A DNA stretch of 64,000 bases from an archaeon (GCA_021107855.1 JAIORZ010000011.1:199686-263685); one strand, 5' to 3'. Positions 30,595 through 41,533 are shown, counted from the stretch's first letter. Numbers and translations: made by a program. The notes: a model not told the origin generated them from the letters alone.

Positions 30595-30655
30595 GGTTGG
30601 ATATTAGAGATTGAAGTGCAATAATTCTTATAAAGATTTTTGGGTCTTGTCTTGG

Positions 30656-32377
30656 ATGCGAAAGGAGTTAGTTGATTTTGTTTTGAAGAATGAGTTGTCG
30701 CCGTTTAGTTTGAGTAAGACGTTGATTAAGAAGAGTGGGAGTATTTATAGGACGAAGGATGCGCGGAGTATTCATTCGAAGGTTTTAGCGAAGCTGTCGA
30801 GTGGGTTTGTTTTTGGAGAGAGTTCTAATTTGTGGAGTTGTTTTGGGCTTGATGGCGATTTGGATGAGGTGAAAAAGCGGCAGGAGTTTTTTTCTGGGTT
30901 GAAAAGTGAGAGTGGGGATTTTTTGAAGGAATTGAATAAACCGAGGGCTAGTTGGAAGCCGCGGTATGATGTTGTGATTGTGACCGAAGACGAGGGGACT
31001 TTTGTGAGTTTGAATAAACTGGGTTGTGGGGTTGTTTTGTTAACGAGCCAGAATGATGTTGCGGAGTTGGAGCGGTATGATGTTGTGCAGGTTGTTGATT
31101 GTGGGGATTTTAAGGGTGTTTTGGAGAGGTTGCCGCAGAGTGTTTTTTTGGAGAGTGCCGACGATGCTTATTTGGAAAGGTTCTTGGAGGAGCTGAGTGG
31201 TTGGCGGGAGAATTTTGCGGTTCTGAATGGGGCAAAAGTTTCTTCTGGTGTTCGTGAATGTTTAGATTCTTTGATGGAGAGTTTCGCTTTGTTAGAGAAT
31301 AAAGAGGGGAAGATTATTAGTGAGAGTGAGGTCGAGAGGGTTTTGGAGGAGGTGAATGAAGAGGTTGGGGAGAAAATTAAAGAGATGACGATTTCTGGTG
31401 AGGGGTTGATGAAGATGTTGGGGGAGGGGAAAATGCCGTCGGGGATTTTGGAGATTGTTCGGAGTGCGATTGAGAGGAGCGGGATTAGTGAACACGTTTT
31501 TAATTTTGGGGTGCCGGTGACGATTGATTATAAGGAGTTGGAGCATCAGGTTAAGGTGCAGAGTGCGAATGAGTTTACTGATGTTGCCGAGAGGATTAAG
31601 AGAAGTGCTTCGAAATTGAAAGGTATACCAGGGATTTTGAGGAGGCTTGAGGCGGAGATTGTTGTAGAGGATTTTTGCAATGGTGTTTGTGAATATATGT
31701 CGGAGCGAATGGAGTTTCCGAATTTTGGGAATGATTTATTTTTAGGCGATTGTTTGAATATGTTTTTGAGGGATGCTAAGCCGATTAGTTTTATTTTGGA
31801 TAGCGAGGTGAAGTGTTCGATTTTGACTGGGGCGAATTCTGGGGGGAAGACGACTTTGCTTGAGCATGTGTTGCAGAATATTAGTTTGTTTAGAATGGGT
31901 TTGCCTGTTATGGGGGAGTTTCGGAGTTTGATGTTTGACGAGGTTTATTATTTTGCGAAAACGAAGGGCTCGACGAGTAAGGGGGCTTTTGAGATGTTGT
32001 TGACGCAGATGGCTGGGATTAAGTCTGGAAAAAACACGCTTATTTTGGCGGATGAGATTGAGGCGGTGACGGAGCCTGGTGTTGCTGGGCGGATTATTGG
32101 GGCAACTGCTGAGTATTTTGTTGGAAAGGGTTGTTTTGTTATTTTGGCGACGCATTTGGGTGCGGAGATTGCTAAGGCTTTGCCCGAGGGTGCGAGGGTT
32201 GATGGGATTGAGGCGAGTGGTTTGGATGAGGATTTTAATTTGATTGTGAATCATAATCCGGTTTTAGGGAGGCTGGCTAGTTCGACGCCGGAGTTGATTG
32301 TGGAGAGGATGGCTGGTTCTATTGGCGGAGAGTATTTTGAGCATTTACTTGAGAAGATTAAGAAAAAGAATTTATAG
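30656..32377 (+). CDS. MutS-like ATPase (MutS domain V only; archaeal MutS2-like)
   Basis: Walker A GANSGGKTT, Walker B ILADEIEAVTEP, ATH. The ORF-track TTG start includes a TATA box (TTCTTATAAAG), so the ATG at 30656 is preferred. Confidence 0.65.
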   Translation: MRKELVDFVLKNELSPFSLSKTLIKKSGSIYRTKDARSIHSKVLAKLSSGFVFGESSNLWSCFGLDGDLDEVKKRQEFFSGLKSESGDFLKELNKPRASWKPRYDVVIVTEDEGTFVSLNKLGCGVVLLTSQNDVAELERYDVVQVVDCGDFKGVLERLPQSVFLESADDAYLERFLEELSGWRENFAVLNGAKVSSGVRECLDSLMESFALLENKEGKIISESEVERVLEEVNEEVGEKIKEMTISGEGLMKMLGEGKMPSGILEIVRSAIERSGISEHVFNFGVPVTIDYKELEHQVKVQSANEFTDVAERIKRSASKLKGIPGILRRLEAEIVVEDFCNGVCEYMSERMEFPNFGNDLFLGDCLNMFLRDAKPISFILDSEVKCSILTGANSGGKTTLLEHVLQNISLFRMGLPVMGEFRSLMFDEVYYFAKTKGSTSKGAFEMLLTQMAGIKSGKNTLILADEIEAVTEPGVAGRIIGATAEYFVGKGCFVILATHLGAEIAKALPEGARVDGIEASGLDEDFNLIVNHNPVLGRLASSTPELIVERMAGSIGGEYFEHLLEKIKKKNL

Positions 32378-32674: not shown

Positions 32675-33244
32675 TTATTGATTTTGAAGGTCGTCTAATT
32701 TTAATAAAGCTTGGTGTCCCAGTAATGTCTTTTTAATTTTGAAATTCCAGTTTTGTAAAAAGTTGGTCGGGTCATCTTCGGGTTCTCTTCTTCCCCATCC
32801 TGTGTGTATGTGGGTGTATCCTTTTGTGCTTGATTTTATGAATTCTTCAAAAAGAGGATATGCGAGAACCCTGTTTTTTCTTTGTATTTTTATGTGGATA
32901 GATGCGATTTTGTTTTTTTCTTTGGGGTTTATGCTTATGCCGTTTATCCATATGCCTCCAGTTATGTATTGTTCCTCTGGAGAATTTATTTCCAGTGTTA
33001 TTATTGGATACCTTAGAAATCTTCTTCTTTCGTCTTGTTCTTCTCCGGTTGATAGAGTGTATTCATCTGTTTTTGAGAAGGGGACGCAATATAGGTTCCA
33101 GAATTCGAGGATTTTTTTGTCAAAACATGGCTTTTCTTTTTGAATCCATTTTTGTTTTTGGGCAGATGTTGTTAGATTATATAGTGCTTCATGTATGTTT
33201 ACATGTGCGTTTTCTCCAATCTGTATTTTTTGTAATATTGTCAT
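32675..33244 (-). CDS. hypothetical protein
   Basis: 189 aa; non-repetitive, ordinary-looking sequence; no motif recognised. Confidence 0.55.
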   Translation of the reverse strand: MTILQKIQIGENAHVNIHEALYNLTTSAQKQKWIQKEKPCFDKKILEFWNLYCVPFSKTDEYTLSTGEEQDERRRFLRYPIITLEINSPEEQYITGGIWINGISINPKEKNKIASIHIKIQRKNRVLAYPLFEEFIKSSTKGYTHIHTGWGRREPEDDPTNFLQNWNFKIKKTLLGHQALLKLDDLQNQ

Positions 33245-36886: not shown

Positions 36887-36934
36887 TTGTTAGTAGTTAG
36901 TTTTAAAAATGGAGTGTAATTTTAATTGTTATGT

Positions 36935-37007
36935 GTCTCGGTAGCTCAGCAGGTAGAGCGCACGGCTGTTAACCGTGATGTCGAAGGTTCGAGTCCTTCC
37001 CGAGACG
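36935..37007 (+). tRNA. tRNA-Asn (GUU)
   Basis: Acceptor GTCTCGG/CCGAGAC, anticodon stem CACGG/CCGTG, loop CTGTTAA, T arm GAAGG-TTCGAGT-CCTTC. Confidence 0.9.
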
Positions 37008-37209
37008 TGTTTTGTTTTTAGAGGACTGAACCTTGAAGGTTTTCTCTGGGAACGACCGCGTTTTATTTGGCTGTCGAGTTTTTTCTGAGACGTTGATTTT
37101 GAAAGAGCCGGTTTCCTGATTTTTGACTTGTTTTTGTCAGAAAATGTGTTATTATTGTATAATTTAACATAAAGCTTATAAAGAAACCTCGTTATTTAGG
37201 TGTATTCTG

Positions 37210-37290
37210 ATGTTAAGATTAGAAAGGTTTAAGAACGAGAATTTGAGGGGCTTGGTTCTTGGGAGTTTGAAATGGAGAAAGACGAAATGA
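37210..37290 (+). CDS. 26-codon leaderless ORF preceding the racemase (candidate leader or precursor peptide)
   Basis: The ATG at 37210 sits at the usual about 30-nt spacing from TATA CTTATAAAG (37175..37183). It encodes MLRLERFKNENLRGLVLGSLKWRKTK. Its TGA overlaps ATG 37287 as ATGA, the coupling pattern used elsewhere in the window. Confidence 0.4.
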   Translation: MLRLERFKNENLRGLVLGSLKWRKTK

Positions 37291-38093
37291 AAATTGTAGG
37301 CATTGTTGGCGGAGTTGGTCCTGAAGCTTCCAATAAATTTTGTGAACTTTTAATTAAGAATACTCCTGCTAGAAAAGATCAAGATAATATTCCGTTTTTG
37401 CATTTTTGTAATCCTCAAATTCCGGATAGGACAGATTATATCGTTGGAGTCGGAGAAGATCCTGTTGGTGAGTTGATTGAGACTTCCAGGGCTCTTGAGA
37501 ATGCGGGAGCAGATTTTTTGGTTATTCCCTGCAATACAGCGCATTATTTTTTGTCACAGGTTCAAGAGGAGGTTTCTGTTCCTATTGTTGATATGACTAA
37601 AGTTTTGGTCAAGAGTGTCTTATCTAAGTGCCCTCCAATTCGGAAGATTGGTCTTTTGGCTACGACTGGGAGTATTCGTGGCGAGATTTATCAAGATTAT
37701 TTTAGTAGTGTTGGGGTAGAGGTTGTTTTGCTTGATGACGAGGATCAAGAGAAGTTGGTGATGGATGCAATTTATGGGGAAAATGGTGTTAAGGCGGGTA
37801 AAAAAAATTTTCCTAGGAAAAAACTGAAGGAGGCTGTTGATAAGTTGGTTGATATGGGAGCTGAAGCTATTGTTTTGGGATGTACTGAGATTCCGCTTGT
37901 TCTGAATCAGAAAGATTTTGATGTTAAGTTGTATGACCCTATGGATTTGACGGCGAAAGAGATTGTTAATTATGTTTGTGGGGATGTTAATAATGATTTT
38001 GTTAGCGTTGAGTTTGTTTTGGAGGATTTTGCTCGTAGCGTTGGGCGAGTTCTGTCTGAAGGTGCTGTGGGAGTGGAGGTTGTCTCGGGATGA
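37287..38093 (+). CDS. aspartate/glutamate racemase family protein
   Basis: MKIVGIVGGVGPEAS, catalytic Cys motifs IPCNTAH and LGCTE. An in-frame upstream ATG at 37272 is the ORF-track start. Confidence 0.82.
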   Translation: MKIVGIVGGVGPEASNKFCELLIKNTPARKDQDNIPFLHFCNPQIPDRTDYIVGVGEDPVGELIETSRALENAGADFLVIPCNTAHYFLSQVQEEVSVPIVDMTKVLVKSVLSKCPPIRKIGLLATTGSIRGEIYQDYFSSVGVEVVLLDDEDQEKLVMDAIYGENGVKAGKKNFPRKKLKEAVDKLVDMGAEAIVLGCTEIPLVLNQKDFDVKLYDPMDLTAKEIVNYVCGDVNNDFVSVEFVLEDFARSVGRVLSEGAVGVEVVSG

Positions 38094-39016
38094 AAGTTGG
38101 GATTTTGCATCATGATTTAGAGGAACAAGAAAAAGTTCTTAGGGACGAATTGATTAGCCATGGTTTTGAAGTGACTCTTTATGATGTTAGGGCGGTTTCT
38201 GTTTCTGATTTGAAGAGTAACAATGTTGTTTTGAATAGGGTTTTTGCGAGTGTTGCTAATAGAAATTATAAGGATAATTTGTTGGCCCTAAGTGTTTTGA
38301 AAAAATTAAAAGAGGATGGAGTTTGTTGTATTAATTCTTATTTTACTACTAGGTGCGACTATTCTAAATATTTTTCTTTTTTGGCTATGAAAAAAGCTAG
38401 AGTTTTAACGCCAGAAACTTTTTTTATTGGAGGGCTAAAGGGCTTAGATGATGTCATTGATTTTTCACGGAAAGTTGGATTTGATTTTGGGTCTCCGGTA
38501 GTTTTGAAAAGAGATATTGGGGGCAGAGGTAAGGAGATACATCTTGTCAAATCCGAAGAGGATATGGTTGGTTTGTTGAAAAATCTTATAGAGGAAGATC
38601 AAGATGATGGTTATGCGGGGGGTTATGTTGTTCAAGAGTTTATTAAGAGTGTCTTGGATTATGATTATAGAGTTTCTATGGTTAATGGGAAAATTGTATA
38701 TTCAATGACTCGTTCTTTTATTAAGGATGATTCAGGGGAAAAGTGGATTGCTAGTATGACTTTAGGATCTAAAGAAAGGCGAATTGAATTGCCGAAGAGT
38801 ATTAGCAGTATTTCTTTAGCTGCTACTAAATCAATTGGCGGATTTTTTAATGACGTGGATATTATGGTGGGAAATAGGGGGGCGTATGTGATTGAGAATA
38901 ATCCTACGCCTAATTTTGCTAAGAGACAAAAGGGAAGTGAAAGCGAAAAGATGAATATTGTTATTAATGAGTTGGTTAAGGAGATTGTGGAGATTGGAGA
39001 TGAGAAACAATTTTAG
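38090..39016 (+). CDS. ATP-grasp (RimK-like) ligase 1
   Basis: VVLKRDIGGRGKEIHLV, YVVQEFI, DYRVSMVNGKIV, DVDIMV..YVIENNPTPNF. ATGA overlap with the racemase stop. Confidence 0.75.
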   Translation: MKVGILHHDLEEQEKVLRDELISHGFEVTLYDVRAVSVSDLKSNNVVLNRVFASVANRNYKDNLLALSVLKKLKEDGVCCINSYFTTRCDYSKYFSFLAMKKARVLTPETFFIGGLKGLDDVIDFSRKVGFDFGSPVVLKRDIGGRGKEIHLVKSEEDMVGLLKNLIEEDQDDGYAGGYVVQEFIKSVLDYDYRVSMVNGKIVYSMTRSFIKDDSGEKWIASMTLGSKERRIELPKSISSISLAATKSIGGFFNDVDIMVGNRGAYVIENNPTPNFAKRQKGSESEKMNIVINELVKEIVEIGDEKQF

Positions 39017-39980
39017 GTTAGGCTTAGTGGCAGAAATGGAAAACGGGAAAACGGGGAATTCAAGGGCTATTAAGTCCGAGGATTGGAAGTATCTATTTAA
39101 TTTTTTTAGATCTAAAGGAGAGGTCGTGTTGTTCGATTGGAAAAACATGGGAAGTGATTTTAGAGTCTCTGAATATATGGAAGGAACAGAGGGTTTTTTT
39201 GGTGTTTCCAGAAAAACATCTGATATTCGAAATTTATGCGATGTTGTTTATATTGGACAATTGGGCAAGATTTATGAAAGGAAAGAGGAATTCTTGAAAT
39301 TTTTAGATATTATGGAAGAATTTCCTGGGCAGGTCGTCAACCCAATTAAAACTATTAGAAGTAATTTGTCTAAAGATTATTTGTTAAAATTGCAAAGCAG
39401 GGGAGTTCGAGTTGTTCCAACTTTAGAAGTTGAAGAGGGGTGTTCTCTTGCAGAGTTAAGGCGGTTGAATTTTTCTAATTATGAGAGACCTATAGATGAT
39501 TTGGTTTTGAAGCCGAAAGTTTTTGGAGAACAAGGGGATGGTGTTCTTAGGGTTAGTGAGATTAGAAGAGATGAAGATTTGCAGAGTTATTTGAAAACTC
39601 ATGGGAAGATGATTGTTCAACCATTGATAAGCGATATTTATACTCGAGGGGAAAATTCATTCATTTTTACTGGTAGGAATTTTAGTCATGGGTTAAATAA
39701 GACTACGGGGAAGTTTAAAATTAATCTTTGTGATTCGGTTAAATATTCTCCGATAGACCCTACGGAGTCTGAGGTGGAGTTGTGTCAGTTGGTTTTTGAT
39801 CTTTGGCCAACTGATTTCGGGTATTGTAGAGTAGATATTATTCCTTCGGATAAGCCGTTGGTTGCAGAGGTAGAGATGGTTAATCCTGCTGGATATTTAG
39901 CGGAAGTCAATGCATTTGAAAAATATTCATTGAGGTTAGAAGATAGATTAAAAGATATTTGTGATGGAAAATGGAACTAA
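39000..39980 (+). CDS. ATP-grasp ligase 2
   Basis: LVLKPKVFGEQGDGVLRV, MIVQPLI, CRVDII..VAEVEMVNP. The start is either 39000 (17-nt overlap) or 39036 (MENGK). Confidence 0.7.
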   Translation: MRNNFRLGLVAEMENGKTGNSRAIKSEDWKYLFNFFRSKGEVVLFDWKNMGSDFRVSEYMEGTEGFFGVSRKTSDIRNLCDVVYIGQLGKIYERKEEFLKFLDIMEEFPGQVVNPIKTIRSNLSKDYLLKLQSRGVRVVPTLEVEEGCSLAELRRLNFSNYERPIDDLVLKPKVFGEQGDGVLRVSEIRRDEDLQSYLKTHGKMIVQPLISDIYTRGENSFIFTGRNFSHGLNKTTGKFKINLCDSVKYSPIDPTESEVELCQLVFDLWPTDFGYCRVDIIPSDKPLVAEVEMVNPAGYLAEVNAFEKYSLRLEDRLKDICDGKWN

Positions 39981-40918
39981 AGTGGATGGTTAGTGCTGGC
40001 AGGATTGAGTCTATTCAGACTAGGGCTGAACATGTGAATCCAGCTAGATATGATGCCTTTGTTGATGCCTTTGGGATTAATAACGTAGGTTTGGTTTCTA
40101 TGGATAATGTTGTTAAGGAGATTAAAACTGGTGAACCTGCGTTTGTTTATTTATTGGGTAGAGATTTAGAGGTTAAGTTGTCGGATGAACGAGGGGTGCA
40201 GGGAAAATTATTTTTGGCTAGTGGATTTGATTTGGGCAGGGGAAAAATGTCTGGGCGCAAGGATTTAGAGAGGGTTATGGGTTATTTAGATTCTCAAATA
40301 GAGAAGGGGAATATTGGCAGGGTTGTTAACTCTAGATATTCTACTTTGTTTGAAGATAAGAAATCTTTTGTTGGCTTAAAAGGAGATGGGTTTTCAGTTC
40401 CAAAAACTTATCATTTTGAAAAGAATAAAGATTTTGTTAATTTTTTTGTGCAAAATGGAAAACATGTTGTGAAGCATCGATTTGGATATGACGGAGTTAA
40501 TAATTTTTTGATTGATTTGTCTAATATTAATTCTTTTGTGGAAAACGAGAAAATATCTGATTATGTCGTTCAAGAGGTTCTTCCCATTATTAGTGAAACT
40601 CGCTTGATTTTTTATAAAGATGAGTTTTTGGGTGCCAGAAAGATTATGGATAGAACTAGGCCCTGGGAGAAAGAATCCAGTACAAAAAGAAAGCATTTAG
40701 TCGAAGCATGTTCCCCGTCTATTAAAGATATTGATAGTGCTAGGCAAATGTTTCGACATTCTAGAGCTGTGATTGGGGGAGTGGATACTGTTCAATTGGA
40801 AAGCGGGGAAGATAAAGTGCTTGAATTTAATGGGGTCTCTACGGGTTTGGGGTATCCTGGGGGAGTTTATGATTTGAATTCTGTGGTTGCTCAAAGATTG
40901 AAAGAATTGGATTCTTAG
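39971..40918 (+). CDS. ATP-grasp ligase 3
   Basis: HVVKHRFGYDGVNNFLI, YVVQEVLP, ETRLIFYKDEFLGAR, GGVDTVQLESGEDKVLEFNG. Overlaps the previous gene's end. Confidence 0.7.
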   Translation: MELKWMVSAGRIESIQTRAEHVNPARYDAFVDAFGINNVGLVSMDNVVKEIKTGEPAFVYLLGRDLEVKLSDERGVQGKLFLASGFDLGRGKMSGRKDLERVMGYLDSQIEKGNIGRVVNSRYSTLFEDKKSFVGLKGDGFSVPKTYHFEKNKDFVNFFVQNGKHVVKHRFGYDGVNNFLIDLSNINSFVENEKISDYVVQEVLPIISETRLIFYKDEFLGARKIMDRTRPWEKESSTKRKHLVEACSPSIKDIDSARQMFRHSRAVIGGVDTVQLESGEDKVLEFNGVSTGLGYPGGVYDLNSVVAQRLKELDS

Positions 40919-40963
40919 TGTTTTAATGGCTAATTTTATAAACTTCTTAATCTGTTCTGTATT

Positions 40964-41533
40964 ATGAAACTCAGAGATGCGATTGAGAAGAGAAAAGATG
41001 TTAAGGTTTATGATTTGAAGGCGCCGGATTGGAGAGCGGTTGTCCGAGCGATTGACGCAGCGCGGTTTGCAACGAGTGCTGGGAGTCATTTTTCTGCTCG
41101 GTTTATTTTGGTTAGTGATAAAAAGGTTATTAAGAAATTGACGGATGTTTGTCAGCAGAGTTTTGTCGGGAAGGCGAGTTATCTTGTGGTTGCTGTGAGT
41201 GACCCTTCGGGTTTAATTAGGAGTTATGGGGATAGGGGCGAGGGTTATTGTGCTAAGCAGATTGGTTCGGCTGTTCAGAATTTTTTGTTGGCGTTGGAGG
41301 AGGAGAAGTTGGTGACGAGTTGGGTTTGGTATTTTGATGATGAGCAGGTTAAGAACCTTTTGGATATTCCTGAGAGTGCTAGAGTTGAGGGGATTTTCCC
41401 GATTGGTAGAGAGATTAGGATTAAGAAGAGACCTCATAGGGGGGCTGTTAAGTTGGATAATATTTTGTTTTTTGAGAAGTATGGGGAGAAGAAGATGAAG
41501 GGTGAGATTAAGCATAGCAGGGATGCCGTTTAG
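40964..41533 (+). CDS. nitroreductase-family protein
   Basis: 189 aa. N-terminal AIEKRKDVKVYD..P....V..I.DAARFATSAG pattern and length fit the nitroreductase fold. Confidence 0.6.
   Translation: MKLRDAIEKRKDVKVYDLKAPDWRAVVRAIDAARFATSAGSHFSARFILVSDKKVIKKLTDVCQQSFVGKASYLVVAVSDPSGLIRSYGDRGEGYCAKQIGSAVQNFLLALEEEKLVTSWVWYFDDEQVKNLLDIPESARVEGIFPIGREIRIKKRPHRGAVKLDNILFFEKYGEKKMKGEIKHSRDAV

What the first reader, a model, noticed from the sequence alone, without database searches (positions are those of the whole stretch)
37287..40918. Operon of an Asp/Glu racemase and three different ATP-grasp ligases next to tRNA-Asn
Four tightly packed genes encode one racemase (PCNTAH/GCTE catalytic cysteines) and three mutually divergent ATP-grasp enzymes. 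The gene junctions show an ATGA overlap or short overlaps.

The known precedent for this logic is the racemase plus ATP-grasp D-aspartate ligase pair in Enterococcus, and more generally RimK-type or L-amino-acid-ligase peptide formation. Three successive ligases plus a D-amino-acid supplier suggest stepwise, non-ribosomal assembly or tailing of a D-Asp/D-Glu-containing peptide or polymer. Candidates include an envelope component, a cofactor tail, an osmolyte or a modified carrier. This is unexpected in a genome otherwise dominated by informational genes.

The block has weaker strand skew than its neighbours and starts about 200 nt after tRNA-Asn, consistent with acquisition. The product and substrates are unknown; this is inference.
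Basis: partly seen in the sequence, partly recalled or inferred. Interest (0 to 1): 0.68.

Follow-up and report, generated by a model that had tools for sequence, protein, structure and literature searches.

The report
Archaeal D-aspartate peptide-ligase gene cassette
A small archaeon carries a tightly packed operon, also found in a few dozen other archaeal lineages, that pairs an aspartate racemase with three very different ATP-dependent ligases; it most likely builds a short peptide containing D-aspartate whose identity and role nobody has yet determined.

Summary
Window 37272-40918 (+) holds four overlapping genes:
- a PLP-independent aspartate racemase, about 50% identical to the Pyrococcus horikoshii enzyme;
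- G1, a RimK/LysX/ArgX-like ATP-grasp ligase;
- G2, an ATP-grasp with no Pfam family, closest to DcsG and GshB;
- G3, an ATP-grasp with no Pfam family, closest to graspetide ligases and RimK.

None of the ligases reaches any equivalog cutoff (LysX, MptN, CofF, RimK, DcsG). The order racemase-G1-(G2)-G3 recurs in about 16 lineages with unrelated flanks (Woesearchaeota, Pacearchaeota, Thorarchaeota).

New facts:
- Most relatives carry a fifth gene, an S66 LD-carboxypeptidase, which this window lacks.
- One lineage fuses the racemase to G1.
- G2 is an optional insert.
- Some lineages have a divergent tandem Lrp/AsnC regulator.

Best reading (inference): ribosome-independent, stepwise assembly of a short D-Asp-containing peptide, with S66 as the matching hydrolase of an L-D terminal bond. 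Product and role are unknown. I found no published description. I rate it a new variant of a known kind, of moderately high interest. The claim of recent acquisition is weak: the block sits at the same locus in a diverged relative.

The parts
36934..37008 (+). tRNA-Asn (GTT). It marks the upstream boundary of the cassette locus and is not shown to be functionally linked.
   Evidence: ARAGORN and Rfam tRNA at 72 bits. The same tRNA-Asn precedes the cassette in the syntenic relative L001.
37150..37271 (+). Conserved promoter and leader region, with a TATA-like TTATAAA at 37176-37182. It contains a possible 26-codon upstream ORF (37210-37290).
   Evidence: The alignment with L001 is more conserved here than just after the tRNA, and the ATG at 37272 aligns with the L001 start. 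There is no Rfam family and no significant RNA fold (z -0.64). The promoter role is inference.
37272..38093 (+). PLP-independent aspartate-type racemase (273 aa; alternative start at 37287). It has a C-terminal extension of about 40 aa beyond the P. horikoshii enzyme.
   Evidence: PF01177 at 1.8e-43. TIGR00035 at 208.6 bits against a cutoff of 93.1, and the CuyB model at 219 against 190. PDB 1jfl aspartate racemase at 4.7e-56, aligned over 222 residues with the PCNTAH and GCTE motifs.
38090..39016 (+). G1: an ATP-grasp ligase of the RimK/LysX/ArgX/MptN superclade (308 aa). It is fused to the racemase in one lineage.
   Evidence: Pfam RimK at 2.7e-14. rimK_fam scores 101.7 bits against a cutoff of 143.4; MptN scores 82 and LysX 77, both far below cutoff. 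The family profile matches RimK 7qys at 1e-17 and ArgX 3vpb at 2e-17. The fusion in L009 is shown.
39000..39980 (+). G2: an ATP-grasp ligase of an unnamed family (326 aa), DcsG/GshB-like. It is an optional member of the cassette.
   Evidence: No Pfam hit. DcsG model at 59 bits against a cutoff of 360. AF2 pLDDT 87.6. Foldseek matches DcsG 6jil with TM 0.70/0.76 and then GshB 1gsa. The profile hits only DcsG in the PDB, at 5e-16. Only 17 clusters were found among 5.8 billion proteins. It is absent from L012/18/19, L027/29 and L030.
39971..40918 (+). G3: an ATP-grasp ligase of an unnamed, rare family (315 aa). It is always present in the cassette.
   Evidence: No Pfam hit. AF2 pLDDT 90.3. Foldseek matches PsnB, MdnC, RimK and ArgX with TM about 0.6. 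The profile hits only the graspetide ligases CdnC and MdnC in the PDB. It has 14 clusters in 5.8 billion proteins and 32 representatives at E<=1e-30 among 1.84 billion.
40919..40963 (.). A 45-nt spacer at the position where relatives carry the fifth cassette gene (S66 LD-carboxypeptidase). That gene is absent from this window.
   Evidence: L001 has S66 between G3 and the nitroreductase. tblastn with S66 finds nothing in the window.

Best explanation
The four genes form one operon for ribosome-independent, ATP-driven assembly of a short peptide, or a peptide-like amide, that contains D-aspartate.

Proposed steps:
1. The racemase converts L-Asp to D-Asp.
2. G1 joins D-Asp to a partner carboxylate through an acyl-phosphate intermediate. 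G1's closest relatives (RimK, LysX/ArgX, MptN) all use the alpha-amino group of an acidic amino acid as nucleophile.
3. G3, and G2 where present, add or close further amide bonds. G3's only sequence relatives with solved structures activate side-chain carboxylates of peptides. G2's closest relatives act on a D-amino-acid derivative (DcsG) or a dipeptide (GshB).
4. In most lineages an S66 LD-carboxypeptidase then cleaves the L-D terminal bond, for turnover, length control or self-protection. This window's lineage has lost that gene.

Shown: the gene identities, the ATP-grasp folds, the conserved order, the fusion and the S66 partnership. Inferred: D-Asp as a building block, the order of the steps, the bond types and the product.
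For: - Racemase identity and Asp-type specificity.
- All three ligases are ATP-grasp enzymes that keep the catalytic positions.
- Overlapping stop and start codons point to co-translation.
- The same order, racemase-G1-(G2)-G3-(S66), occurs in about 16 lineages in at least 8 different genomic contexts.
- A racemase::G1 fusion in L009 ties the D-amino-acid supply directly to the first ligase.
- An S66 peptidase follows G3 in most lineages, often overlapping it. It carries the Ser/Glu/His motifs GYSD, FLEE and FGHT. Characterised S66 enzymes remove a C-terminal D-residue from an L-D bond (LdcA) or cleave an aspartyl amide (MccF); this is established family knowledge.
- A divergent tandem Lrp/AsnC-type (amino-acid-sensing) regulator is present in L003, L026, L027 and L029.
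- No ligase qualifies as a member of a known pathway.
Against: - No product, substrate or activity has been measured for any member.
- The racemase also passes the NCBIfam cysteate-racemase (CuyB) cutoff, so the D-amino acid could be another small acidic one.
- One lineage (L013) lacks the racemase next to the ligases.
- S66 is missing here and in L009, L011 and L016/17, so it is not essential.
- G1's and G3's nearest relatives mostly modify proteins or peptides rather than free amino acids. The acceptor could therefore be a protein.
- No transporter or carrier gene is conserved with the cassette, so the product's destination is open.
Confidence: 0.5

Rival explanations
1. Writer/eraser tailing of a protein. 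The ligases add D-Asp and other residues to the C-terminus or a side chain of a specific protein, as RimK does on ribosomal protein S6 or LysX/ArgX on LysW. S66 removes the tail.
For: - G1's profile is closest to RimK, ArgX and LysX, all of which act on protein C-termini.
- G3's closest structures and only PDB sequence relatives act on peptides: PsnB, MdnC, CdnC and RimK.
- From my own knowledge, pairing of a ligase with a peptidase is seen in rimABK and in tubulin TTLL/CCP systems.
Against: - No conserved small carrier or target gene (for example LysW-like) sits inside or next to the cassette, and flanks differ between lineages.
- A free-amino-acid racemase fused to G1 fits either model.
- G2's relatives DcsG and GshB act on small molecules.
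Confidence: 0.15
2. The product is part of the cell envelope. It would be a murein-like stem peptide or glycopeptide built by ATP-grasp ligases instead of Mur ligases, with S66 (and YkuD-type enzymes) acting on its terminal L-D bond.
For: - S66 is the murein tetrapeptide LD-carboxypeptidase family.
- In three lineages S66 is fused to DUF1861, a domain I recall as a beta-propeller related to glycoside hydrolases/phosphorylases.
- A YkuD L,D-transpeptidase gene lies about 5 kb from the cassette in L003.
- The bacterial precedent is the D-Asp cross-bridge made by a racemase plus the D-aspartate ligase (PMC13631041).
Against: - No lipid-carrier transferase, flippase or glycosyltransferase is conserved with the cassette.
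- All cassette proteins look cytoplasmic.
- YkuD is seen in one context only.
- The DUF1861 function is recalled from memory, and the paper search turned up nothing useful on it.
Confidence: 0.1
3. The cassette makes a toxic antimetabolite, and S66 is the producer's immunity enzyme. The product would be a D-amino-acid-derived small molecule in the manner of D-cycloserine or dipeptide antibiotics, and S66 would act as MccF does for microcin C.
For: - G2's closest relative is the D-cycloserine synthetase DcsG.
- S66 matches MccF nearly as well as LdcA.
- The distribution is patchy.
- Modules are swapped at one and the same locus (L006, L013, L030).
- tRNA genes border the cassette, and its composition is atypical.
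Against: - No exporter is present.
- Several lineages, including this window, keep the ligases without S66, which would be self-harming under this model.
- The cassette sits stably among housekeeping genes in two diverged relatives.
Confidence: 0.1
4. Salvage rather than synthesis. S66 and the racemase process scavenged D-amino-acid-containing peptides (for example bacterial murein peptides), and the ligases re-use the pieces.
For: - From my own knowledge, S66 together with an epimerase occurs in bacterial murein-peptide recycling clusters (ykfABCD, LdcA/Mpl).
- From general knowledge, DPANN archaea are auxotrophs that depend on scavenging.
Against: - Two or three ATP-consuming ligases form the invariant core, while S66 is the dispensable part.
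- The racemase is fused to a ligase, not to the peptidase.
Confidence: 0.07
5. Either a graspetide (RiPP) system, or three unrelated known pathway enzymes (LysX, CofF/MptN, RimK) that merely sit side by side.
For: G3 resembles graspetide macrocyclases, and G1 hits the RimK domain.
Against: - There is no room for a precursor gene inside the cassette, and no conserved small ORF in the flanks. The only candidate upstream ORF has no acidic residue in L001.
- All equivalog scores are far below cutoff.
- Linkage is conserved across phyla.
Confidence: 0.03

Closest known systems
Enterococcus faecium aspartate racemase plus D-aspartate ligase Aslfm/AslA (peptidoglycan cross-bridge)
   Same: An Asp racemase is encoded next to an ATP-grasp ligase that consumes the D-Asp. 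It is the only well-established pathway that uses D-Asp as a building block through an ATP-grasp enzyme (PMC13631041).
   Different: That system has one ligase, whose acceptor is UDP-MurNAc-pentapeptide. These archaea have no murein pathway in view. Here there are two or three ligases of other ATP-grasp families plus an S66 peptidase.
RimK, LysX/ArgX and MptN/CofF (RimK-type alpha-L-glutamate or carrier-protein ligases)
   Same: G1 carries the Pfam RimK ATP-grasp domain, and its family profile is closest to RimK, ArgX and LysX. These enzymes use an acidic amino acid as nucleophile.
   Different: G1 is below the rimK_fam subfamily cutoff and far below every equivalog cutoff. There is no S6 or LysW-type acceptor gene. 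G1 is linked, and once fused, to a racemase, which no characterised member is.
DcsG (D-cycloserine synthetase) and GshB (bacterial glutathione synthetase)
   Same: These are G2's best structural and only sequence matches (TM 0.70/0.76 to 6jil; 1gsa comes next). DcsG acts on a D-amino-acid derivative, and GshB extends a dipeptide. In L013 the G2 slot is filled by a ligase with the GshB-type Pfam domain.
   Different: Identity is 19%, and the score is 59 bits against a cutoff of 360. No other dcs or gsh genes are present.
Graspetide macrocyclases (PsnB, MdnC, CdnC)
   Same: These are G3's top Foldseek matches and its only PDB profile hits.
   Different: TM is only about 0.6 and identity 10-16%. 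There is no precursor peptide gene. G3 sits in a cassette with a free-amino-acid racemase.
S66 peptidases LdcA (murein tetrapeptide LD-carboxypeptidase) and MccF (microcin C immunity)
   Same: The fifth cassette gene in relatives has both S66 domains and the Ser/Glu/His motifs.
   Different: It scores 71-74 bits against 378 for the LdcA equivalog. It is shorter than MccF. It is archaeal and coupled to ligases. It is absent from this window.

Membership tests
PLP-independent aspartate racemase (PF01177 / TIGR00035) | Family HMM score above the curated cutoff | tested here: met
   PF01177 scores 149 bits against a cutoff of 31. TIGR00035 scores 208.6 bits against 93.1.
PLP-independent aspartate racemase (PF01177 / TIGR00035) | Two catalytic cysteines in the PCNTAH and GCTE motifs, and close similarity to a characterised Asp racemase | tested here: met
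   Both motifs align with P. horikoshii AspR (1jfl), E 4.7e-56 over 222 residues.
PLP-independent aspartate racemase (PF01177 / TIGR00035) | Racemisation of L-Asp to D-Asp | not testable with these tools
   This needs an enzyme assay.
Cysteate racemase CuyB (NF052483) | Equivalog HMM score above cutoff | tested here: met
   219.4 bits against a cutoff of 190.
Cysteate racemase CuyB (NF052483) | Genomic association with the D-cysteate sulfo-lyase CuyA (PLP enzyme, PF00291), as described in PMC11193023 | tested here: not met
   No such gene lies next to the racemase in the window or in any fetched locus.
RimK family alpha-L-glutamate ligases (TIGR00768) | Subfamily HMM score above cutoff (for G1) | tested here: not met
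   101.7 bits against a cutoff of 143.4. The Pfam RimK ATP-grasp domain itself is met, at 53.7 bits against 21.
MptN, LysX, CofF and RimK proper (NCBIfam equivalogs) | Equivalog HMM score above cutoff for any of G1, G2 or G3 | tested here: not met
   G1 scores: MptN 82 against 350, LysX 77 against 276, CofF 44.5 against 300, RimK 23 against 331. G2 scores 25 and G3 16 against MptN.
LysX/ArgX carrier-protein pathway | A LysW-type small acidic carrier protein encoded with the ligase | tested here: not met
   No small conserved ORF lies within or beside the cassette. The 85-aa ORF after tRNA-Gln in L009 and L011 has no LysW-like acidic C-terminal tail.
D-cycloserine synthetase DcsG (NF058666) | Equivalog HMM score above cutoff (for G2) | tested here: not met
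   59.1 bits against a cutoff of 360. The fold resemblance is TM 0.70/0.76.
ATP-grasp superfamily (G2 and G3) | The three-domain ATP-grasp fold | tested here: met
   The AF2 models (pLDDT 87.6 and 90.3) match many ATP-grasp structures with Foldseek E 1e-14 to 1e-17 and probability 1.0.
ATP-grasp superfamily (G2 and G3) | Conserved ATP- and Mg-binding residues (Lys in the central domain, Gln/Glu hinge, Asp/Glu-x-Asn) | tested here: met
   G2: K171, Q207-P208, D279, E290, E292 and N295 are invariant. G3: K168, Q201-E202, D272, E285 and N287 are invariant. Assigning these positions to ATP and Mg binding is by analogy.
Graspetide (RiPP) systems | A precursor peptide gene with an Asp/Glu plus Ser/Thr/Lys core next to the ligase | tested here: not met
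   The cassette genes overlap and the flanks are not conserved. The only candidate upstream ORF (37210-37290) has a counterpart in L001 with no acidic residue.
D-aspartate ligase Aslfm | Sequence orthology to Aslfm and a UDP-MurNAc-pentapeptide acceptor | not tested
   No Aslfm sequence or model was available in the tools. No Mur pathway genes are seen in the window.
Peptidase S66 (LD-carboxypeptidase) - the fifth gene in relatives | Both S66 domains and the Ser-Glu-His catalytic motifs | tested here: met
   PF02016 and PF17676 both hit in L001, L003, L006, L007, L010, L012, L013 and L026-30. GYSD, FLEE and FGHT align to 6uuk. The LdcA equivalog scores only 71-74 bits against 378. The gene is absent from the window.

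The most novel reading that the evidence does not exclude
The cassette defines a previously unknown D-aspartate-containing peptide metabolite, or envelope or protein modification, of DPANN and Asgard archaea. It would be made by two or three ATP-grasp ligases from families with no described member and trimmed by an archaeal LD-carboxypeptidase. This would be the first defined biosynthetic sink for D-Asp in Archaea. It would also be a fully ATP-grasp-based alternative to Mur-ligase or NRPS peptide assembly.
Probability: 0.4. Interest if true: 0.78.

Novelty: new variant of a known kind. Interest (0 to 1): 0.62.

Why it matters
Archaea have long been known to possess aspartate racemases, but as far as I could find no pathway that consumes D-Asp has been defined in them. 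This cassette offers a concrete, testable candidate: four or five small soluble enzymes that can be expressed and reconstituted.

It also adds two ATP-grasp families without any Pfam model or characterised member. These organisms have tiny genomes, so keeping a five-gene biosynthetic block implies a real physiological need.

The variable make-up of the cassette gives a natural experiment for assigning steps. The variants are with or without G2, with or without S66, the racemase fusion, and the S66-DUF1861 fusion.

Tried and rejected
- Orthology of the three ligases to separate known pathways was rejected. All NCBIfam equivalog scores are far below cutoff.
- A graspetide system was rejected. 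There is no precursor gene, and the upstream ORF at 37210-37290 has a counterpart in L001 with no acidic residues.
- A riboswitch or structured leader upstream of the racemase is not supported. There is no Rfam match, the fold z-score is -0.64, and there is no covariation, with only two sequences available.
- Recent horizontal acquisition at tRNA-Asn is not supported. The same locus and the same tRNA are present in a relative with 55-80% protein identity, which shows the same weaker skew.
- A functional link to the adjacent nitroreductase or FtsZ was rejected. They are neighbours only in the window and its syntenic relative.
- The 85-aa ORF after the cassette in L009 and L011 was considered as a possible carrier protein and rejected on reading its sequence: it has no LysW-like acidic C-terminal tail.
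- The AsnB-Dph6 fusion after S66 in L027/L029 was considered as an amidation step. It is seen in one lineage only and matches housekeeping equivalogs.
- Plasmid search: there is no G3 homologue, and only distant (22-28% identical) G2-like ORFs in bacteria.
- Literature searches for a description of this cassette found nothing. The Iyer/Aravind 2009 amidoligase survey, which may mention related neighbourhoods, is not held in the library.

Full report
**1. What is in the window**

ORF listing shows four consecutive + strand genes:
- 37272-38093, with an alternative ATG at 37287;
- 38090-39016;
- 39000-39980 (the mechanical ORF starts at a TTG at 38958, but all homologues start at the equivalent of the ATG at 39000);
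- 39971-40918.

The junctions were read directly. The racemase and G1 share an ATGA overlap, G1 and G2 overlap by 17 nt, and G2 and G3 overlap by 10 nt. tRNA-Asn lies at 36934-37008, 263 nt upstream. After G3 there is a 45-nt spacer and then a nitroreductase-family gene (40964-41533), followed by ftsZ on the other strand. The surroundings are archaeal housekeeping genes: aIF-1A, a DEAD helicase, a GTPase, a DHH phosphoesterase and an amidase. The exact G3 protein is on record as NCBI MCD4771585.1, from an unclassified 'archaeon' MAG.

**2. Identity of the four proteins**

*Racemase.*
- Pfam Asp_Glu_race scores 1.8e-43.
- TIGR00035 scores 208.6 bits against a cutoff of 93.1. The glutamate racemase model reaches only 41 bits against 147.
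- The best solved structure is P. horikoshii aspartate racemase 1jfl, at E 4.7e-56 and roughly half the residues identical over 222 positions. The PCNTAH and GCTE cysteine motifs are aligned.
- It also passes the NCBIfam cutoff for cysteate racemase CuyB (219 against 190). CuyB works with the sulfo-lyase CuyA (PMC11193023), and no such gene accompanies the racemase here or in any relative. Asp is therefore the likeliest substrate, and another small acidic amino acid cannot be excluded.

*G1.*
- It has the Pfam RimK domain (2.7e-14) but falls below the rimK_fam subfamily cutoff (101.7 against 143.4).
- It is far below the MptN, LysX, CofF and RimK equivalog cutoffs.
- A profile of 25 family members is closest to RimK (7qys, 1e-17), ArgX (3vpb, 2e-17) and LysX.

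*G2.*
- It has no Pfam family.
- Its only sequence relative in the PDB is the D-cycloserine synthetase DcsG (profile E 5e-16). The NCBIfam DcsG model gives 59 bits against 360.
- Its AlphaFold2 model (pLDDT 87.6) matches DcsG with TM 0.70/0.76, then E. coli glutathione synthetase and ArgX.

*G3.*
- It has no Pfam family.
- Its profile hits only the graspetide ligases CdnC and MdnC in the PDB (7.7e-5 and 9.5e-4).
- Its model (pLDDT 90.3) matches PsnB, MdnC, RimK and ArgX at TM about 0.6 and 10-16% identity.

Both G2 and G3 keep invariant residues at the positions expected for ATP and Mg binding.

The three ligases show no significant BLASTP similarity to one another. Profile-profile comparison links G1 to G3 (95.5%) and G1 to G2 (93.6%), but G2 to G3 only weakly (51%). 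So the observation of one racemase plus three mutually divergent ATP-grasp enzymes is correct.

**3. Is the linkage conserved?**

Yes.

*Rarity of the families.*
- G2 has 17 clusters and G3 has 14 clusters among 5.8 billion proteins.
- An exhaustive HMM search finds only 32 G3 representatives at E<=1e-30 among 1.84 billion.

*Gene order.* Context look-ups and collection scans, analysed with tblastn and family HMMs, give about 16 distinct lineages. Almost all have the order racemase-G1-G2-G3 with overlapping or abutting genes.

*Different flanks:*
- KH protein and tRNA-Asn ... nitroreductase and FtsZ (window, L001/2);
- UvrC and an Lrp-like regulator ... NUDIX or Bax1-I (L003-5, L026);
- Elp3 ... 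GTPase ... ribosomal proteins (L006, L013, L030);
- RIO kinase ... tRNA-Gln and S15 (L009; the same tRNA-Gln/S15 downstream side is seen in L011 and L016/17);
- a toxin-antitoxin pair and GH43 (L010);
- ribosomal protein S2 (L012);
- a tRNA synthetase and an Lrp-like regulator ... AsnB-Dph6 (L027, L029).

*Named sources.* These are Woesearchaeota (L011, L013), Pacearchaeota (L012) and Thorarchaeota (L007). One contig (L026) is labelled Patescibacteria, but its syntenic relative L003 carries an archaeal-type ThrRS editing domain. Only 3 of 185,579 reference species genomes were found with the pattern-based scan.

**4. What the window alone does not show**

(a) In most lineages a fifth gene follows G3, often overlapping it. 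It is a Peptidase_S66 LD-carboxypeptidase with the GYSD, FLEE and FGHT motifs aligned to a solved muramoyltetrapeptide carboxypeptidase. It is absent from the whole window, and also from L009, L011 and L016/17.

(b) In L009 the racemase and G1 form one 548-aa protein. This fusion ties the D-amino-acid supply to the first ligase.

(c) G2 is optional.
- L012/18/19 have racemase-G1-G3-S66.
- L027/29 and L030 have racemase-G1-(remote G3-like)-S66.
- In L013 the racemase is missing, and the G2 slot holds a different ligase with the GshB-type Pfam domain.
- The core is therefore racemase + G1 + G3(-like) + S66.

(d) In L006, L013 and L014 the S66 peptidase is fused to DUF1861.

(e) L003, L026, L027 and L029 have a divergently transcribed regulator of about 320 aa made of two Lrp/AsnC-type modules. 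These are amino-acid-sensing regulators.

**5. Mechanism**

*Established family knowledge.* ATP-grasp ligases phosphorylate a carboxylate and let an amine (or hydroxyl) attack the acyl phosphate.
- RimK, MptN, CofF and LysX/ArgX use the alpha-amino group of an acidic amino acid as nucleophile.
- GshB extends a dipeptide.
- DcsG closes an amide from the carboxylate of a D-amino-acid derivative.
- Graspetide ligases activate side-chain carboxylates of Asp or Glu within peptides.
- S66 enzymes release a C-terminal D-residue from an L-D bond (LdcA) or cleave an aspartyl amide (MccF).

*Best-supported model.* Combining this with the anatomy gives the following pathway:
1. L-Asp is racemised to D-Asp.
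2. G1 couples D-Asp to a carboxylate partner.
3. G3, and G2 where present, add or close further amide bonds.
4. S66 hydrolyses the resulting L-D terminal bond, for turnover, length control or protection.

Everything after the gene identities and their linkage is inference. I put the general model, stepwise ATP-grasp assembly of a D-Asp-containing peptide, at about 0.5.

*Rivals.*
- Tailing of a protein acceptor in the RimK/LysX manner (0.15). This is favoured by the relatives of G1 and G3, but there is no conserved acceptor gene.
- An envelope peptide or glycopeptide (0.10). It is supported by the S66 family, the DUF1861 fusions and one nearby YkuD gene, but no membrane steps are conserved.
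- An antimetabolite with S66 as immunity (0.10). It is supported by the DcsG and MccF resemblances and by patchy, modular evolution. However, S66 is dispensable and no exporter is present.
- Salvage of D-peptides (0.07).
- A graspetide system, or unrelated known pathways side by side (0.03). Both were tested and failed.

**6. The acquisition claim**

The whole window has an extraordinary strand asymmetry: G 17429 against C 8181, and T 23902 against A 14488. At third codon positions the GC skew is +0.80 for + strand genes and -0.68 for - strand genes measured on their own coding strand.

The four cassette genes are indeed less skewed and poorer in GC3 than most neighbours. But L001, whose cassette proteins are 55-80% identical, has the cassette at the same place, after the same tRNA-Asn, and with the same weaker skew. 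So this is not a recent arrival. The difference may instead reflect expression level or an older transfer.

Across phyla, several features are compatible with lateral spread of the cassette over longer times. The distribution is patchy, the contexts differ, and tRNA genes border the cassette repeatedly: Asn, Gln, and Glu twice.

**7. Comparison with known systems and novelty**

The closest functional precedent is the enterococcal racemase plus D-aspartate ligase pair (PMC13631041). The closest sequence and structure relatives are RimK/LysX/ArgX (G1), DcsG/GshB (G2) and graspetide ligases/RimK (G3). The closest relatives of the fifth gene are LdcA and MccF.

No ligase meets the membership criteria of any named family beyond 'ATP-grasp' and, for G1, the RimK-type domain. 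Four literature searches found no description of this cassette. The 2009 amidoligase survey by Iyer et al. could not be read.

I classify it as a new variant of a known kind: ATP-grasp peptide assembly coupled to a racemase. It has two undescribed ligase families and an archaeal LD-carboxypeptidase partner.

**8. Verdict**

The product is unknown but directly testable. Interest is 0.62.

Noticed in passing
window 1-64000 (also L001): There is extreme, orientation-independent strand asymmetry. The + strand has G 17429 against C 8181 (GC skew +0.36) and T 23902 against A 14488. GC skew at third codon positions is +0.80 in + strand genes and -0.68 in - strand genes on their own coding strand. Every 4-kb bin is positive. 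The syntenic relative L001 shares the asymmetry, whereas several other cassette-bearing contigs (e.g. L003, L006, L009) show none. This looks like a very strong replication- or repair-linked mutational bias, which is unusual for an archaeon.
   Followed up: partly
window 36934-37008; L009 4322-4394; L011 4287-4361; L016 7994-8069; L007 4529-4601; L013 10795-10869: A tRNA gene borders the cassette in several independent contexts, and all are for acidic or amide amino acids: tRNA-Asn upstream, tRNA-Gln just after G3, and tRNA-Glu after S66 in a Thorarchaeote and in a Woesearchaeote. This could mark integration sites, be chance in dense genomes, or be something functional.
   Followed up: partly
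window 37150-37290: The roughly 120 nt before the racemase are better conserved with L001 than the sequence just after the tRNA. They hold a TATA-like box and a short upstream ORF (26 codons here, 19 in L001) that ends at or over the racemase start. There is no Rfam family and no significant fold.
   Followed up: partly
L006 8936-10744; L013 8929-10725; L014 1225-3024: In three lineages the S66 peptidase is fused to a DUF1861 domain. From memory this is a beta-propeller related to glycoside hydrolases/phosphorylases, which hints that the substrate might carry a sugar. The one paper that mentions DUF1861 was not informative.
   Followed up: partly
L006, L013, L030 (upstream Elp3-like radical SAM/GNAT and MMR_HSR1 GTPase genes): One and the same genomic locus holds three different versions of the cassette: the full five genes with S66-DUF1861; a version with no racemase and a GshB-type second ligase; and a two-ligase version with a remote G3. 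This shows module swapping in place.
   Followed up: partly
L003 4249-5235 (-); L026 5136-6089 (-); L027 5210-6175 (-); L029 5210-6232 (-): A regulator of about 320 aa, made of two Lrp/AsnC-type modules, is transcribed divergently from the racemase in several lineages. The three copies aligned (L003, L026, L027) are 36-53% identical. There is no counterpart in the window.
   Followed up: partly
window 37968-38093 (racemase residues about 233-273): Most cassette racemases carry roughly 15-50 extra residues compared with the 228-aa P. horikoshii enzyme. In this window the extra part is a C-terminal extension of about 40 aa. In the L009 fusion this segment is replaced by a direct join to G1, so it might be a docking element.
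   Followed up: no
window 30611-32377 (+) and 32675-33244 (-): Two sizeable ORFs (588 and 189 aa) have no Pfam family at E<=1e-4.
   Followed up: no
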